From assembly GCA_046496605.1 (NCBI GenBank), contig JAWOGV010000209.1:1-27125 (forward strand): 27,125 bases of DNA, written 5' to 3'. Shown in pieces: positions 14,444-17,691 of the stretch. The DNA is from Acidimicrobiia bacterium. Its GTDB lineage: Bacteria; Actinomycetota; Acidimicrobiia; Spongiisociales; UBA5794. The number at the start of each line of letters is the position of its first letter. Within the stretch, counting starts at the first letter, position 1. A program made the position numbers and the translations under genes. The notes under the pieces were generated by a model that searched no databases, was not told the DNA's origin, and was given only the letters and a program-made list of their open reading frames with translations.

Positions 14444-15379
14444 ATGAAGCGGGTCTTCGTCACCGGTGCCGCGAGTTGGACGGGTGGCCAGCTGGTCAGG
14501 GCGCTTGCCGCTCGACGGGATGTCGAGGTGTTCGCTGTCGACGACGAAGCGCCACGTGTGGCGTTCGACGCCGAGTTCAAGTTGCTGGACCTCGACCGGC
14601 TCGCACTCGCCCGGTACGTCCTCGAGATCGAACCCGACGTGGTCGTCCATCTGCAGTCGGTCCACCGCAGGGCCGAGGAGGGCCACACAACCGGAGCCGA
14701 GGATCGGATCATCGGTGCCTTGGCGTTGTTCGGGGCGATCGAACGGGTCCAGTCCGTCTCCTCCGTGATCGTCAAGTCTGATACGGCCATCTACGGATCG
14801 AATCCCAGGAACCCCTCCGTCGTCGATGAATCGACACGCCCAAGGGGCCGCTCGAGCCGATTCCAGAGGGACCTCGCCGAGATGGAGCGTTTCGTGGCAG
14901 GACTCTCCGACCGCCTCCCCGACGTCGTGTTCACGACGCTGCGCTTCGCACCGATCTTCGGTCCCCGAGTCGCGAACCCGATCAGTCGCTACCTCACCCT
15001 GCCGGTCGTGCCCACGCTCCTGGGCTTCGATCCCCGCCTCCAGTTCACGGATGAACGAGACGCCGTCGCCGCCATCGAGTATTCGCTCGACCATCCGGTG
15101 TCGGGCACGTTCAACGTCGCGGGTGACGGTCAGATGTATCTCTCGCGCGTACTCCGCCTCGGAAGGCGAGCTCCCCAGCCGCTGCCGGGCCGCGTGTTCG
15201 ATACCGCGCTGCGGACCCTCCGCAGAACCGGGCTGGTCATCCCTGACCACCTCTCGGGCCTCCTGAAGCACGGCCGCGTCGCAGACACGACCCTGATGCG
15301 TACCGAGCTCGGCTTCGCTCCCCGCTACACATGTCGCATGACGGTGATGAACACCTATCACCCGGAGATCTCACCATGA
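14444..15379 (+). CDS. NAD-dependent epimerase/dehydratase-fold (atypical SDR), Rv0501/GalE2-like
   Basis: VFVTGAASWTG, AIYGSNPRNPSVVDE, TLRFAPIFGP, LGFDPRLQF, GTFNVAGDG. Leaderless start with TACCCT (14431-14436) 7 nt before ATG. Confidence 0.88.
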   Translation: MKRVFVTGAASWTGGQLVRALAARRDVEVFAVDDEAPRVAFDAEFKLLDLDRLALARYVLEIEPDVVVHLQSVHRRAEEGHTTGAEDRIIGALALFGAIERVQSVSSVIVKSDTAIYGSNPRNPSVVDESTRPRGRSSRFQRDLAEMERFVAGLSDRLPDVVFTTLRFAPIFGPRVANPISRYLTLPVVPTLLGFDPRLQFTDERDAVAAIEYSLDHPVSGTFNVAGDGQMYLSRVLRLGRRAPQPLPGRVFDTALRTLRRTGLVIPDHLSGLLKHGRVADTTLMRTELGFAPRYTCRMTVMNTYHPEISP

Positions 15380-16593
15380 CCGGGGACTTCCGATCGATGA
15401 CGAAGGCAGAGCTCCTCCAACACGCCCGAGCGATCGATCTGAGGGGGAGGTCCTCGATGACGAAGGCCGAGCTCCTCGCCGCCCTGGAGGAGACAGCGAC
15501 AGCCGGGAAGGCGGCTGACCGGGCCGGACACAAGGCGATCGAGATCCCTGAGGGACTCGGATCCCTTTCGCTACCGGGTATCTCAGCAGAGGACCGGGCC
15601 GAGGCCCGCCAGCGCCGATCGGCGCTGAACGACCGGCTCCGCGCCTTCGTGGACCCTGCGACGCACTGCCCGTGGCGGAGCATCGAGGGACACCCCTGCG
15701 GGCTGCCCGTGTCAGTCGGTGCATCCCGGTGCGGTCTCCACGGTGATGGCTCCATTGCCGATCGGGCCTTTCCCCTGACCGGCATCCTCGGGTTCAGCGC
15801 ATGGCCCGCTCTCTGGCGCCACCTCATGCTCGCAACGTACGACGTCGACGCCTTCGGTCTCGATCCCGTCGTGGCCGAGATGGTGTGGCATGTGCTCAAT
15901 GGCCTCTACTACGACTACTTCCGCGTGGAGGTCGACGGGATCGAGAACATCCCGCTGGATGGACCCGCAGTGCTCGTCGCGAACCACGGCGGCGCGGCGC
16001 TCCCCTACGACGCTGCGATGCTGTCGCTCGCCGTCATGAACGAGGCCGAGGTCCCGCGACGCGTGCGCGTCATCGGGACGGAGATCTTCAACATGCTGCC
16101 CTTCGTCTCGCACCTGTACCGGAAGGTCGGTGCAGCCCACGCAACCCGCGAGGATGCTGCCGAGATCCTCAGGCGCGGGCACCTCCTCGGTGTCTTCCCC
16201 GAAGGAGAGCGCGGGTTCATGAAGCCGGTGTGGGAGGCCTATCGCGTCGGGCGCCTCGGACGTGGTGGGTTCGTCGAGATCGCCCAGGACGCCGGCGCGG
16301 TGATCGTCCCCGTAGCGATCATCGGCTCCGAGGAGGTGCATCCAGCCGTGATGACCTCGAAGCTCCTCGCCCGCCTCGTGAGGGTCGTCTTCCCGGAGCA
16401 GCGGGTCGAGGAGATCGCCATCGCACTCAATCCGATCCCCCTCCCGATCCGGTGGAGGATCCGGTTCCTGGAACCCGTACCCGCGGATCGGCCACTCGAT
16501 GCGCTCGACCTCCTCCAACGATCCGAGGACATCCGTCGCTCCATCCAGGAAGCCCTCGACGACATGCTCGCCTCACGTCGCACATCGTTCTGA
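15376..16593 (+). CDS. Lysophospholipid acyltransferase family protein (Rv0502-like) with N-terminal Rho_N-like module and CCCH zinc finger
   Basis: DVDAFGLDP, YFRVEVDGIENIP.DGPAVLVANHGG, LGVFPEGERG, LGRGGFV, IVPVAIIGSEE, PIPLPIRWRIRF. N-terminal MTKAELLQHARAIDLRGRSSMTKAELLAAL and C-x9-C-x10-C-x2-H. ATGA overlap with the SDR gene. Confidence 0.9.
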   Translation: MTGDFRSMTKAELLQHARAIDLRGRSSMTKAELLAALEETATAGKAADRAGHKAIEIPEGLGSLSLPGISAEDRAEARQRRSALNDRLRAFVDPATHCPWRSIEGHPCGLPVSVGASRCGLHGDGSIADRAFPLTGILGFSAWPALWRHLMLATYDVDAFGLDPVVAEMVWHVLNGLYYDYFRVEVDGIENIPLDGPAVLVANHGGAALPYDAAMLSLAVMNEAEVPRRVRVIGTEIFNMLPFVSHLYRKVGAAHATREDAAEILRRGHLLGVFPEGERGFMKPVWEAYRVGRLGRGGFVEIAQDAGAVIVPVAIIGSEEVHPAVMTSKLLARLVRVVFPEQRVEEIAIALNPIPLPIRWRIRFLEPVPADRPLDALDLLQRSEDIRRSIQEALDDMLASRRTSF

Positions 16594-16647: not shown

Positions 16648-16657
16648 GCAATCGACT

Positions 16658-17005
16658 ATGAAGACACCGCAGCTTGGGGACGTCGGTTCGTTCATCCGTG
16701 AACAGCGGGAACGCAGCGCACTGTCGATCCGCAAACTCGCTGATCTGACCGGGGTCTCGAACCCCTATCTGAGCCAGATCGAGCGTGGGGTCCGAACACC
16801 ATCGGCGGAGATCCTCAGATCCATCGGCGAGGCCCTGTCCATCCGGACGGAGACCCTCTACGAGCGGGCAGGACTCCTCGACAGGGACGAACCTCCGGGA
16901 GTGACCGAGGCAATCGAAGCAGACCCCGGGCTGACGGCGAACCAGAAGAGAGCCCTGATGGAGATCTATACGACCTTCATCGCACACGACAAGGAGGAGC
17001 AATGA
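16658..17005 (+). CDS. XRE-family HTH transcriptional regulator (Rv0474-like)
   Basis: GSFIREQRERSALSIRKLADLTGVSNPYLSQIERGVRTPSAEILRSI...LYERAGLL...AIEADPGLTANQKRALMEIY. ATG 16643 and 16646 are alternative starts but overlap the -10. Confidence 0.92.
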   Translation: MKTPQLGDVGSFIREQRERSALSIRKLADLTGVSNPYLSQIERGVRTPSAEILRSIGEALSIRTETLYERAGLLDRDEPPGVTEAIEADPGLTANQKRALMEIYTTFIAHDKEEQ

Positions 17006-17691
17006 ACCTCGAAACCTCGAAGGAAACGGCCACGAAGGCCGTGAAGACGGTCACAGGGACCGTCGCCGATACCACGACGACGGCAACGACCAAGGCGAAG
17101 GAATACACCGAGGTCGCAGCCGGTAAATTCTTCGACTACTCGACAGCGGCCACCGATTCGGTCAAGGAGGCAACCGACACCGCGACGTCTCGCGCCAGCG
17201 AGTACGGCACCGCTGCTGTCGCCACGATCGCCGATACCGCAACGGAGATCATCGACCAGGGAAGGGTCCTCGCACACAAGGGCTTCGTCCGCGTGAAGGA
17301 GTTCCAGGTCGGAGACAAGAAGGTCGGCGAACGCGCCCAGGCGACCGTCGACACCGTCACTGAGAAGATCGACGTTGACCAGATCCAGGATCAGGTCGCG
17401 AAGCTCCGTCACCAGATGGAGGGTGTCCTGAGCACATGGAAGGACACGTTCCGTCCCTCGACGGCGCCCGCAACGGCTCCCAAGCCCGCCGCAGTGAAGC
17501 CCGCTGCCAAGAAGCCGGCAGTCAAGAAGCCGGCAGCGAAGGCGACAACGGCCACCAAGCCTGCCGTCAAGAAGCCGGCCGCAAAGAAGGCGACACCCAA
17601 GGCGTCGACCACGGCACGGAAACCTGCCGCAAAGAAGGCGACACCAAAGGCGACGACCACAGAGGCGTCGACCACCAAGACGACCGCATAG
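17002..17691 (+). CDS. HbhA/phasin-like protein with 11-mer amphipathic repeats and a Lys-Ala-Pro-rich tail
   Basis: AAGGAGG SD and ATGA overlap with the XRE gene. Tandem 11-mers at aa 14-79, a coiled segment, and a tail with KKPAAK repeats. Same gene order as Rv0474-hbhA. Confidence 0.8.
   Translation: MNLETSKETATKAVKTVTGTVADTTTTATTKAKEYTEVAAGKFFDYSTAATDSVKEATDTATSRASEYGTAAVATIADTATEIIDQGRVLAHKGFVRVKEFQVGDKKVGERAQATVDTVTEKIDVDQIQDQVAKLRHQMEGVLSTWKDTFRPSTAPATAPKPAAVKPAAKKPAVKKPAAKATTATKPAVKKPAAKKATPKASTTARKPAAKKATPKATTTEASTTKTTA
17458..17688 (+). repeat. Coding low-complexity repeats (KPAAKK / KKPAVKK / KKATPKA)
   Basis: GTCAAGAAGCCGGC occurs twice. GCCGCAAAGAAGGCGACACC.AAGGCG.CGACCAC occurs twice, 48 nt apart. 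Confidence 0.85.

What the first reader, a model, noticed from the sequence alone, without database searches (positions are those of the whole stretch)
15376..15741. Acyltransferase fused to a Rho_N-like helix-extension-helix and a C-x9-C-x10-C-x2-H zinc finger
The N-terminus FRSMTKAELLQHARAIDLRGRSSMTKAELLAAL fits the Rho-termination-factor N-terminal-like module. At DNA level it contains a near-duplicate CGATGACGAAGGC.GAGCTCCTC 60 nt apart. After a linker comes C(15667)-PWRSIEGHP-C(15697)-GLPVSVGASR-C(15730)-GL-H(15739)-G, resembling HGGxSTG-type CCCH fingers. Both module types are normally linked to nucleic-acid or protein binding. I do not know them on a PlsC-fold acyltransferase.
Basis: partly seen in the sequence, partly recalled or inferred. 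Interest (0 to 1): 0.8.

Follow-up and report, generated by a model that had tools for sequence, protein, structure and literature searches.

The report
Acyltransferase with HeH and zinc-finger head
A lipid acyltransferase of an uncultured Acidimicrobiia bacterium really does carry a small Rho_N/SAP-like helix domain and a conserved Cys3-His finger at its front end; the finger is an old feature of this enzyme family across Actinomycetota, already catalogued as Pfam DUF5763 but never studied, and the helix domain is a lineage-specific addition.

Summary
Gene 15376-16593 (+) encodes a 405-aa protein with four parts:
- a helix-extended-helix domain (aa 6-41)
- a variable ~25-aa linker, acidic in most relatives
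- a helix plus a C98-x9-C108-x10-C119-x2-H122 finger
- a PlsC-fold acyltransferase domain

Translation starts upstream of the finger: an ATGA overlap with the upstream SDR gene, a GGAG 8 nt upstream, and matching homolog N-termini.

The four finger ligands are invariant in every complete relative examined, and they include the protein's only three cysteines.

The architecture is not rare. Hundreds of Acidimicrobiia proteins share it. The finger sits at the orthologous position in 46 of 66 sampled Actinomycetota orthologs, where it matches Pfam DUF5763 and NCBIfam HGGxSTG. DUF5763+Acyltransferase is a common public architecture. I found no paper on it.

The enzyme is the Rv0502 type. It always sits beside an SDR/epimerase gene, and after Rv0502 its fold is closest to the triglyceride synthase DIESL/TMEM68 and to DGAT2.

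My reading is that the finger is a structural zinc knuckle built into the enzyme's N-terminal helical region, and the HeH domain is a flexibly linked tether. Its partner, nucleic acid or protein, is unresolved. Zinc binding and enzyme activity are untested.

Verdict: a new variant of a known kind, of moderate interest.

The parts
14444..15379 (+). Upstream SDR / NAD-dependent epimerase-family gene (Rv0501-like), translationally coupled to the acyltransferase. I set the start at MKRVFVTGAASW.
   Evidence: Pfam PF01370, E 4e-15. ATGA overlap at 15376-15379. The SDR lies directly upstream of the acyltransferase in 16/16 loci sampled across the phylum and in all Acidimicrobiia loci with enough flank.
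15364..15367 (+). GGAG Shine-Dalgarno-like site 8 nt upstream of ATG 15376
   Evidence: Read directly from the sequence.
15376..16593 (+). Whole gene: 405-aa HeH + CCCH finger + acyltransferase protein (P0001)
   Evidence: Translation. GC3 0.83 in this frame. Homologs at 70-100% identity over their full length.
15391..15498 (+). Helix-extended-helix (Rho_N/SAP-like) domain, aa 6-41
   Evidence: Pfam Rho_N 24.2 bits and FANC_SAP 23.3 bits on aa 1-60. Six-frame hit at 15391-15498, 23.7 bits. AF2 helices 10-19 and 30-51 with pLDDT 93-96. VIA-align top hit is Rho NTD 1a62, Z 6.2, rmsd 2.0 A over 46 residues, followed by SAP, LEM and FAN1-SAP.
15395..15477 (+). Two 23-nt near-identical stretches (15395-15417 and 15455-15477) that encode the two SMTKAELL helix starts
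   Evidence: This is the pseudo-repeat of the HeH fold, not a separate element.
15499..15573 (+). Variable, low-confidence linker, aa 42-66
   Evidence: pLDDT 45-69. Length 18-34 aa across homologs; mean net charge -4.3, but 0 in the window's own copy.
15586..15642 (+). Conserved Arg-rich helix, aa 71-89 (DRAEARxRRxALxxRL)
   Evidence: AF2 helix 71-89 with pLDDT >90 in the full-length model. R74, R81 and R87 are invariant.
15664..15744 (+). CCCH finger, aa 97-123: H-C98-x9-C108-x10-C119-x2-H122-G
   Evidence: All four ligands are invariant. They are the only Cys in the protein. Short beta-strands at 92-97 and 111-113, pLDDT 93-95. Weak HGG_STG hit. Orthologous fingers match DUF5763, HGG_STG and GvpO_arch_Nterm. 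hhalign probability 80%.
15751..15921 (+). Two conserved helices before the Pfam domain, aa 126-182 (WPxLWRHL...YDxDxFGLDP...). Probably the interfacial two-helix motif of the PlsC fold.
   Evidence: AF2 helices 140-152 and 164-181 with pLDDT >90. R148, D158 and G161 are invariant across the phylum. Foldseek alignments to DIESL, DGAT2 and PlsC begin at aa 140-167. The role at the membrane interface is inferred.
15922..16320 (+). Acyltransferase domain (PF01553), aa 183-315. Includes the catalytic block NHGGAALPYD (aa 203-212, 15982-16011) and FPEG (aa 274-277).
   Evidence: Pfam E 2e-19, 70 bits. N203, H204, G206, D212 and P275-E276-G277 are invariant in 39 sequences across the phylum. Foldseek hit to PlsC 5kym, E 4e-6.
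16321..16590 (+). C-terminal part of the fold, aa 316-405, including the long terminal helix 376-400
   Evidence: AF2 model. Conserved over its full length in orthologs.

Best explanation
The gene encodes a soluble, peripherally acting lipid acyltransferase of the Rv0502 type. It has the PlsC/LPLAT fold, and after Rv0502 its closest characterised look-alikes are the neutral-lipid synthases DIESL/TMEM68 and DGAT2. It is made together with, and most likely works with, the SDR encoded just upstream.

**Shown**
- The domain order is HeH (aa 6-41), variable linker, Arg-rich helix (71-89), Cys3-His finger (97-123), two conserved helices, then the catalytic domain with invariant H204 and D212.
- The finger is inherited from the ancestral Actinomycetota enzyme, where it is a DUF5763/HGGxSTG-type finger.
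- The HeH was added in one Acidimicrobiia clade, where it takes the place of the short M-x-(D/E)-A-(K/E)-V-I-P-(I/L) peptide that many other orthologs have.

**Inferred**
- C98, C108, C119 and H122 bind one Zn2+. This forms a small structural knuckle that fixes the Arg-rich helix and the interfacial helices onto the catalytic domain, so the finger is part of the enzyme body rather than a free nucleic-acid reader.
- The HeH, on its flexible linker, acts as a tether that places the enzyme at a cellular site. It binds either nucleic acid/nucleoid or a protein partner; which one is unresolved.
- The acyl acceptor is unknown. A neutral-lipid or lysolipid acceptor linked to the SDR's product is my best guess.
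For: **Architecture and conservation**
-.
- The finger holds the protein's only three cysteines.

**Finger is part of a folded unit**
- The finger and flanking helices have pLDDT 90-95 in the full-length model (pTM 0.78).
- They reach only 80-87 when the N-terminal 185 aa are modelled alone.
- This is consistent with packing against the catalytic domain.

**Finger has lost its basic character here**
- In this lineage the finger has mean net charge -0.5 and a CGLP motif in place of CRNxA.
- Other Actinomycetota fingers average +2.7.
- This argues for a structural rather than a nucleic-acid-binding role here.

**Finger ancestry**
- The orthologous finger is present in 46/66 sampled orthologs from 14 of 24 families, always about 77-118 aa before the NHxG motif, with two exceptions at 141 and 162.
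- Family matches: DUF5763 31/47, HGG_STG 25/47, GvpO_arch_Nterm 33/47.
- hhalign probability 80%, E 1.4e-5, with the four ligands in register.

**HeH fold**
-.
- Its nearest sequence relatives are bona fide Rho_N repeats in many unrelated small proteins, so it is a promiscuous module.

**Enzyme type**
- Best AFDB Swiss-Prot hits are Rv0502/ML2427 (E 2e-21, 32% identity), then DIESL (E 2e-14), DGAT2 and PlsC.
- Best PDB hit is PlsC 5kym.
- No hydrophobic stretch outside the conserved core strand IVPVAIIG reaches transmembrane level.

**SDR partnership**
- ATGA overlap.
- The SDR-acyltransferase pair is conserved in 16/16 phylum loci and about 55 Acidimicrobiia loci.
Against: - No coordinates were available, so neither the Zn-site geometry nor the finger-to-catalytic-domain contact could be measured. 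The packing argument rests only on pLDDT differences.
- Zinc binding, the acyl donor and acceptor, and the HeH partner are all untested.
- Orthologs in several families do without the finger: the f42 family (to which the Rv0502-like loci belong by my inference), the large-genome family f28, f48 and f54. The finger is therefore not required for the fold or for the SDR pairing.
- The HeH is charge-neutral, which does not favour DNA binding.
- The similarity to DIESL/DGAT2 is by structure, at 17-24% identity. It does not establish the substrate.
Confidence: 0.5

Rival explanations
1. **Nucleoid / lipid-droplet tether.** The HeH, possibly with the Arg-rich helix and finger, binds DNA or RNA. This would place a neutral-lipid-synthesising enzyme at the nucleoid. 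It would work together with the adjacent XRE regulator and the PAKK-tailed HbhA/MLDS-like protein, as in the Rhodococcus MLDSR/MLDS system that ties lipid droplets to DNA.
For: - HeH, SAP, LEM and Rho_N folds are typically found in nucleic-acid-associated proteins (structural neighbours).
- SDR-AT-XRE-HbhA-like-DUF4332(HhH) are directly adjacent in about 50 Acidimicrobiia loci.
- The XRE + PAKK-tail pair is the phylum-wide pair of the kind shown in Rhodococcus jostii to bind lipid droplets to DNA (PMC5504291).
- The catalytic domain resembles the TAG synthases DIESL and DGAT2 (PMC10482677, PMC9916437).
Against: - The HeH has net charge about 0 and the finger about -0.5 in this lineage.
- The whole region, including PDH, GCS2 and DivIVA, is syntenic in the clade, so adjacency may be plain synteny.
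- In other Actinomycetota the two gene pairs lie 14-30 kb apart.
- No binding test was possible.
Confidence: 0.17
2. **Protein-protein module.** The HeH and/or the finger recruit a protein partner (the co-translated SDR, another lipid enzyme, or a second copy of the enzyme itself). No nucleic acid is involved.
For: - SAP/LEM-type HeH domains can bind proteins. Among the structural neighbours are LEM-BAF and the MANF/CDNF SAP-like domains bound to the BiP nucleotide-binding domain.
- Neutral charge.
- The SDR partner is strictly conserved and translationally coupled.
- In other orthologs the same N-terminal position holds a short conserved peptide (M-x-D/E-A-K/E-V-I-P-I/L) that looks like a docking motif.
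Against: - The SDR pairing persists in orthologs with neither HeH nor finger, so these modules are not needed for it.
- No complex prediction was obtained.
Confidence: 0.25
3. **Regulatory metal or redox switch.** The Cys3-His site senses zinc availability or oxidation and switches the acyltransferase on or off.
For: All cysteines of the protein are in the site. The site lies next to the helices that lead into the active-site domain.
Against: No specific evidence. Sites of this kind are usually structural. Several families have lost the finger without replacement.
Confidence: 0.05
4. **Chance or artefact.** The modules are chance resemblances or annotation/assembly artefacts, and the real protein starts after them.
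For: The window's own Rho_N and HGG_STG scores are below the curated cut-offs.
Against: - Conserved over the full length in hundreds of proteins and 55 species-level genomes.
- Confident predicted fold.
- SD site and ATGA coupling at 15376.
- The genome's own Rho scores the same as this HeH.
Confidence: 0.02

Closest known systems
Rv0502 / ML2427 (Mycobacterium tuberculosis / M. leprae; Swiss-Prot 'uncharacterized protein') with the neighbouring Rv0501 (galE2-type SDR)
   Same: - Best structural match in AFDB Swiss-Prot: E 2e-21, 32% identity, aligned over aa 38-405.
- The mycobacterium-like loci I sampled have the same SDR-then-acyltransferase gene pair and the same NHxG...D, FPEG and GRGGF blocks.
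- Rv0502 is listed as a conserved PlsC homolog of unconfirmed activity (PMC10593935).
   Different: The mycobacterium-like orthologs sampled have neither the HeH nor the Cys3-His finger. They begin with an ...AKVIPLH... peptide. Function is unknown on both sides.
DUF5763 (PF19067) + Acyltransferase (PF01553) proteins of other Actinomycetota
   Same: - Orthologous enzymes with the same SDR neighbour.
- The finger has the same four ligands and spacing, at the same distance from the catalytic motif.
   Different: - Their finger is basic (CxAxTxxGxPCRNxA...C..H, mean charge +2.7) and is recognised by Pfam and NCBIfam.
- The window's finger is a divergent, non-basic derivative (CxWxSxEGHPCGLP...CGLHG) that no curated model recognises.
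- They lack the HeH domain.
HGGxSTG domain (NCBIfam NF041373) and the haloarchaeal GvpO N-terminal region (NF045806)
   Same: Same short Cys-Cys-Cys-His pattern. 25 and 33 of the 47 finger segments scanned match these models. The window's copy aligns to positions 7-26 of HGG_STG, and more distant clade members read C-x-LHGG.
   Different: The window's score (15-16 bits) is far below the cut-off of 29. Those families are not attached to acyltransferases as far as the model names tell. I found no functional study.
DIESL/TMEM68 and DGAT2/MGAT/AWAT neutral-lipid acyltransferases (eukaryotes)
   Same: Next-best structural matches after Rv0502: E 2e-14 to 1e-7 over aa ~141-400. The His...Asp catalytic block has non-canonical spacing; TMEM68 uses H129/D135 (PMC9916437).
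   Different: Those are integral ER membrane proteins of eukaryotes at 17-24% identity, with no HeH and no finger. The substrate of the window's enzyme is untested.
PlsC (1-acyl-sn-glycerol-3-phosphate acyltransferase), Thermotoga maritima 5KYM
   Same: Same fold (Foldseek E 4e-6) and same Pfam domain. Public annotations give this name to the homologs.
   Different: The NCBIfam AGP_acyltrn model scores 35.5 bits against a cut-off of 103. The spacing is H-x7-D instead of HX4D. The PlsC name on the homologs is an automatic label, not evidence.
Rho N-terminal domain / SAP / LEM helix-extended-helix modules
   Same: Same predicted fold (Z 6.2 to 4.6, rmsd 1.5-2.6 A over 39-46 residues), and the same sequence signature in which both helices start (L/M)-T/S-K-x-E-L.
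   Different: In Rho the module precedes an OB-fold RNA-binding domain and an ATPase. Here it precedes a lipid enzyme, and its charge is neutral.

Membership tests
Rho_N (PF07498) / HeH-SAP-LEM fold | Score at or above Pfam's gathering threshold (24.9 bits) | tested here: not met
   19.6 bits in the whole protein, 24.2 bits on aa 1-60, 23.7 bits in the six-frame search. This is just under the threshold. The genome's own Rho scores 23.6, and many close homologs carry a precomputed PF07498 hit.
Rho_N (PF07498) / HeH-SAP-LEM fold | Two helices joined by an extended loop, about 40 aa | tested here: met
   AF2 helices 10-19 and 30-51 with pLDDT 93-96. The best of 48,161 chains is Rho NTD 1a62 (Z 6.2, rmsd 2.0 A, 46 aa), followed by SAP, LEM and FAN1-SAP. 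Z is modest, as expected for so small a domain.
Rho_N (PF07498) / HeH-SAP-LEM fold | Binds nucleic acid or a chromatin protein | not testable with these tools
   Net charge about 0.
DUF5763 (PF19067) / HGGxSTG (NF041373) Cys3-His finger | C-x8-9-C-x9-10-C-x2-H ligand pattern, conserved | tested here: met
   C98, C108, C119 and H122 are invariant.
DUF5763 (PF19067) / HGGxSTG (NF041373) Cys3-His finger | Score above the curated cut-off of the family model | tested here: not met
   No DUF5763 hit for the window's copy or for other members of its clade. HGG_STG scores 15-16 bits against 29. Some orthologs outside the clade do pass, for example L116 with 27.1 against 26.3.
DUF5763 (PF19067) / HGGxSTG (NF041373) Cys3-His finger | Homology to recognised members | tested here: met
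   hhalign of the clade's finger profile against the other orthologs' finger profile gives probability 80%, E 1.4e-5, with the ligands in register. The finger has the same position in the orthologous proteins.
DUF5763 (PF19067) / HGGxSTG (NF041373) Cys3-His finger | Binds zinc | not testable with these tools
   The only attempt, a complex job with Zn, was not folded by the tool.
LPLAT / PlsC-fold acyltransferases (PF01553) | Pfam domain above threshold, and the fold | tested here: met
   70 bits against a cut-off of 23. Foldseek hits to PlsC 5kym (E 4e-6), GPAT1 and PatA.
LPLAT / PlsC-fold acyltransferases (PF01553) | Catalytic His...Asp block and the (F)PEG block | tested here: met
   N203, H204, D212 and P275-E276-G277 are invariant in 39 sequences across the phylum. 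The spacing is H-x7-D here and H-x6-D in other orthologs, not the canonical HX4D.
Bona fide PlsC (LPA acyltransferase, TIGR00530) | Score above the NCBIfam cut-off | tested here: not met
   35.5 bits against 102.95. It should not be filed as PlsC.
Rv0502-type actinobacterial acyltransferases | Best reciprocal-type similarity and the conserved upstream SDR gene | tested here: met
   Rv0502, Mb0514, MT0523 and ML2427 are the top four AFDB Swiss-Prot hits. The SDR neighbour is present in 16/16 loci.
DIESL/TMEM68-DGAT2 neutral-lipid synthases | MGAT/DGAT activity | not testable with these tools
   Only structural similarity is available: E 2e-14, TM 0.42-0.52, 24% identity.

The most novel reading that the evidence does not exclude
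In this Acidimicrobiia clade, a DIESL/DGAT2-like neutral-lipid acyltransferase has acquired a nucleic-acid-binding HeH head, and its gene has moved directly next to the XRE/PAKK-tail (MLDSR/MLDS-like) pair. Together with the SDR, these genes would form one module that builds lipid bodies on, or tethers them to, the nucleoid. The enzyme itself, and not only a coat protein, would then be anchored to DNA.
Probability: 0.12. Interest if true: 0.7.

Novelty: new variant of a known kind. Interest (0 to 1): 0.4.

Why it matters
The Rv0501/Rv0502-type SDR-acyltransferase pair is conserved across Actinomycetota, apparently including the minimal M. leprae genome (ML2427), and still has no assigned function.

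- **A structural handle.** Most non-mycobacterial orthologs carry a Cys3-His finger (DUF5763), and one clade adds a Rho_N/SAP-like domain. These features make the family easier to study experimentally.
- **A first enzymatic context for a domain of unknown function.** DUF5763/HGGxSTG would be linked to an enzyme for the first time.
- **A concrete question.** Is this lipid enzyme positioned by a tether?

If the tether binds DNA, this would extend the lipid-droplet-to-DNA link known from Rhodococcus to the biosynthetic enzyme. If it does not, this is an ordinary case of accessory domains added to an enzyme.

Tried and rejected
- **Zn complex prediction.** Complex prediction with the full-length alignment plus Zn was not folded by the tool and gives no evidence either way.
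- **Fold searches with the N-terminal model.** They found only the HeH. Nothing matched the finger, which is too small for these searches.
- **ESM Atlas feature search on aa 66-135.** No usable hit.
- **Literature.** Searches for HGGxSTG and for DUF5763/PF19067 returned no papers. Rv0502 appears only in lists and expression tables.
- **Library-wide HMMER search with aa 1-150.**
  - It found the finger region only in fragments or members of the same family.
  - P0127 is a 517-aa apparent SDR-acyltransferase read-through.
  - Otherwise it found only generic Rho_N repeats.
  - The window-type finger was therefore not seen in any other protein context.
- **Search for the HbhA-like neighbour in five other Actinomycetota genomes.**
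  - It gave one weak low-complexity hit.
  - I confirmed the relationship instead by locating the XRE ortholog and reading the gene beside it.
- **Rejected: the 60-nt DNA repeat as a regulatory or recombination feature.** It is the coding image of the HeH pseudo-repeat.
- **Rejected: filing the protein as PlsC**.
- **Not relied on: 'query_from' in the phylum search as a proxy for having a finger.** Mycobacterium-like loci aligned from position 69 without any Cys. I replaced it with direct pattern reading of 66 fetched loci.
Full report
**1. What is there**

The window is a 65.8% GC chromosomal stretch of an uncultured Acidimicrobiia genome. The assembly G000 is 2.2 Mb in 409 contigs and 86% complete. 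The nearest public contigs are Acidimicrobiia MAGs.

The surrounding genes are housekeeping genes:
- ctaA/ctaB-type genes, selD, mgtE, NAD synthase, GCS2, prephenate dehydrogenase
- the finding's gene cluster
- a DivIVA-like gene, dnaK-grpE-dnaJ, and an E1 dehydrogenase

The gene in question is 15376-16593 (+), 405 aa (P0001). Three things support its start:
- ATG 15376 overlaps the stop of the upstream SDR gene (ATGA).
- GGAG lies 8 nt upstream.
- Full-length homologs begin at the same aligned position.

The 23-nt near-duplicate lies at 15395-15417 and 15455-15477 and was not seen in shuffled sequence.

**2. The helix-extended-helix domain**

- aa 6-41 match Pfam Rho_N at 24.2 bits when aa 1-60 are scanned alone (cut-off 24.9), and FANC_SAP at 23.3 bits.
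- In a six-frame search of the whole genome, only two places match Rho_N: this gene (23.7 bits) and the genome's real Rho (23.6 bits). Rho was identified by its 490-aa frame with RNA-binding and ATPase parts. The score just under the cut-off is therefore typical of this organism rather than a sign of a false match.
- Many close homologs carry a precomputed PF07498 hit.
- AlphaFold2 gives two helices (10-19, 30-51) at pLDDT 93-96, both in the full-length model and in the model of the N-terminal 185 aa.
- An exhaustive structural comparison puts the E. coli Rho N-terminal domain first (1a62, Z 6.2, rmsd 2.0 A over 46 residues). SAP domains, the SLX4 and FAN1 SAP domains, the LEM domain and the C-terminal part of T4 endonuclease VII follow. 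Foldseek also ranks Rho first, though without significance.
- The DNA repeat is the image of the fold's internal pseudo-symmetry. In all but one of the 46 related loci compared, the two helices both start (L/M)-(T/S)-K-x-E-L exactly 20 residues apart. Only here are eight residues identical, and hence 22/23 bases.
- The nearest sequence relatives of this HeH outside the family are genuine Rho_N repeats in many unrelated small proteins. It is therefore a promiscuous module.

**3. The finger**

- C98, C108, C119 and H122 are invariant in 26 homologs at 69-91% identity, in more distant clade members at about 40-55%, and by pattern in 53 of 55 Acidimicrobiia species-level loci.
- One of the two exceptions is a locus with a frameshift in the assembly. 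The other was an anchor failure of my script.
- The protein has no other cysteine.
- The model places short strands at 92-97 and 111-113, with pLDDT 93-95.

The important result comes from outside the clade.
- A profile search of 301 Actinomycetota genomes found homologs in 140. That tally includes three unpublished genomes, G001, G048 and G088. No sequence-level claim here rests on them.
- I fetched 66 of these orthologous loci from 24 families and read their N-termini.
- 46 of them, from 14 families, have a C-x8-9-C-x9-10-C-x2-H finger, nearly always about 77-118 residues before the NHxG catalytic motif. The consensus is CxAxTxxGxPCRNxA...GxCxxH.
- Scanned one by one, the 47 finger segments (the window's own plus these 46) gave 31 hits to Pfam DUF5763, 33 to NCBIfam GvpO_arch_Nterm and 25 to HGG_STG. 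Some pass Pfam's threshold.
- A homology search started from one such ortholog shows PF19067+PF01553 as a common precomputed architecture.
- The window's own finger is too diverged for these models: no DUF5763 hit, and HGG_STG at 15-16 bits against a cut-off of 29.
- A profile-profile comparison of the clade's fingers with the other orthologs' fingers gives 80% probability, E 1.4e-5, with all four ligands in register. The position in the orthologous proteins is the same.

I conclude that the finger is an ancestral feature of this enzyme family, and that the window has a derived version of it. The derivation has a direction: the other fingers are basic (mean net charge +2.7), while the clade's are not (-0.5).

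**4. The enzyme**

- PF01553 matches aa 183-315 (E 2e-19). The NCBIfam PlsC model is far below its cut-off.
- Across 39 sequences spanning the phylum, N203, H204, G206, D212, P275-E276-G277, G295-R296-G297-G298 and others are invariant. The His-Asp spacing is x7 here and x6 elsewhere, not the canonical x4.
- The full-length model (mean pLDDT 84, pTM 0.78) matches PlsC of T. maritima best in the PDB.
- In AFDB Swiss-Prot it matches Rv0502, Mb0514, MT0523 and ML2427 first (E 2e-21, 32% identity). DIESL/TMEM68 follows (E 2e-14), then B. subtilis PlsC, DGAT2, wax and phytyl ester synthases, and other PlsC/AGPATs.
- Rv0502 is listed among conserved mycobacterial PlsC homologs without a confirmed activity (PMC10593935).
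- DIESL/TMEM68 makes triacylglycerol (PMC10482677; PMC9916437).
- There is no transmembrane-grade hydrophobic segment outside the core strand.

**5. Context**

- The SDR gene lies directly upstream in 16 of 16 loci sampled across the phylum.
- Within the Acidimicrobiia clade the order SDR, acyltransferase, XRE regulator, PAKK-tailed protein, convergent DUF4332 is kept in about 50 loci. So are the flanking housekeeping genes, so adjacency alone proves little.
- The XRE regulator has 50-54% identical orthologs in other Actinomycetota. These lie 14-30 kb from the acyltransferase.
- In a mycobacterium-like genome it is followed by a 210-aa protein ending in KKAPAKKAPAKK repeats, and in another family by a shorter Lys/Ala-rich protein. 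This is the HbhA/MLDS kind of pair. In Rhodococcus jostii that pair ties lipid droplets to DNA (PMC5504291).

**6. How it most likely works**

Shown: the domain order, its conservation, the ancestry of the finger, the lineage-specific gain of the HeH, and the enzyme type.

Inferred:
- The four ligands hold one zinc ion.
- The finger and the Arg-rich helix form one folded unit with the interfacial helices and the catalytic domain. pLDDT is 90-95 in the full-length model but 80-87 when the catalytic domain is absent.
- In this clade the finger is structural rather than a nucleic-acid reader, because it has lost its basic residues.
- The HeH acts as a tether. It sits on a variable 18-34-aa linker of low confidence that is acidic in most relatives.

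I cannot decide whether the tether holds nucleic acid or a protein. I rate these as about equally likely, and I rate the specific lipid-body/nucleoid reading at about 0.12-0.17.

**7. Verdict**

The claim of an unknown combination needs correcting:
- The finger-acyltransferase fusion is widespread and already visible in Pfam architectures.
- The three-part form is standard for a large uncultured clade.
- None of it has been studied.

It is a new variant of a known kind, of moderate interest.

Noticed in passing
L082-L097, L101-L150 (orthologs outside the Acidimicrobiia clade): Many orthologs start with a conserved short peptide, M-x-(D/E)-A-(K/E/R/Q)-(V/I)-(I/V)-(P/x)-(I/L), for example MADAKVIPF, MGEAEIIPI and ...KAKVIPLH. 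These include the mycobacterium-like and large-genome (f28) orthologs that lack the finger. It looks like a short docking motif, and the HeH domain occupies its place in the window's clade. Its function is unknown.
   Followed up: partly
alignment A4 (finger segments); The actinobacterial acyltransferase fingers match NCBIfam NF045806 (N-terminal region of haloarchaeal gas-vesicle protein GvpO) in 33 of 47 cases, more often than HGG_STG. A few also touch zf-primase and zf-TRM13_CCCH. This suggests one widespread small Cys3-His module shared by very different proteins.
   Followed up: no
window 16655-17691; L152 (G139), L153 (G078): The XRE regulator and PAKK-tailed protein downstream of the acyltransferase form a phylum-wide gene pair. 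The regulator is 50-54% identical in distant genomes. The pair is adjacent to the SDR-acyltransferase pair only in the Acidimicrobiia clade, and lies 14-30 kb away in the other genomes checked.
   Followed up: partly
P0127 (517 aa); L054: One database protein reads through from the SDR into the acyltransferase. One GTDB genome has the acyltransferase split over two frames. Both look like frameshifts or assembly errors rather than true fusions or pseudogenes.
   Followed up: no
G000:C252 (L099 154-1626, minus strand): The genome's own Rho (490 aa) has a long Asp/Arg/Asn-rich insertion after its N-terminal HeH. Its Rho_N score (23.6 bits) falls below Pfam's gathering threshold, so automatic annotation may miss the domain in this lineage.
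   Followed up: no
window 14444-15379: The upstream SDR has an atypical glycine motif: TGAASWTGG in place of the usual TGxxGxxG. It matches only generic epimerase/dehydratase models (best NCBIfam hits are far below their cut-offs). Its substrate is as open as that of the acyltransferase.
   Followed up: no
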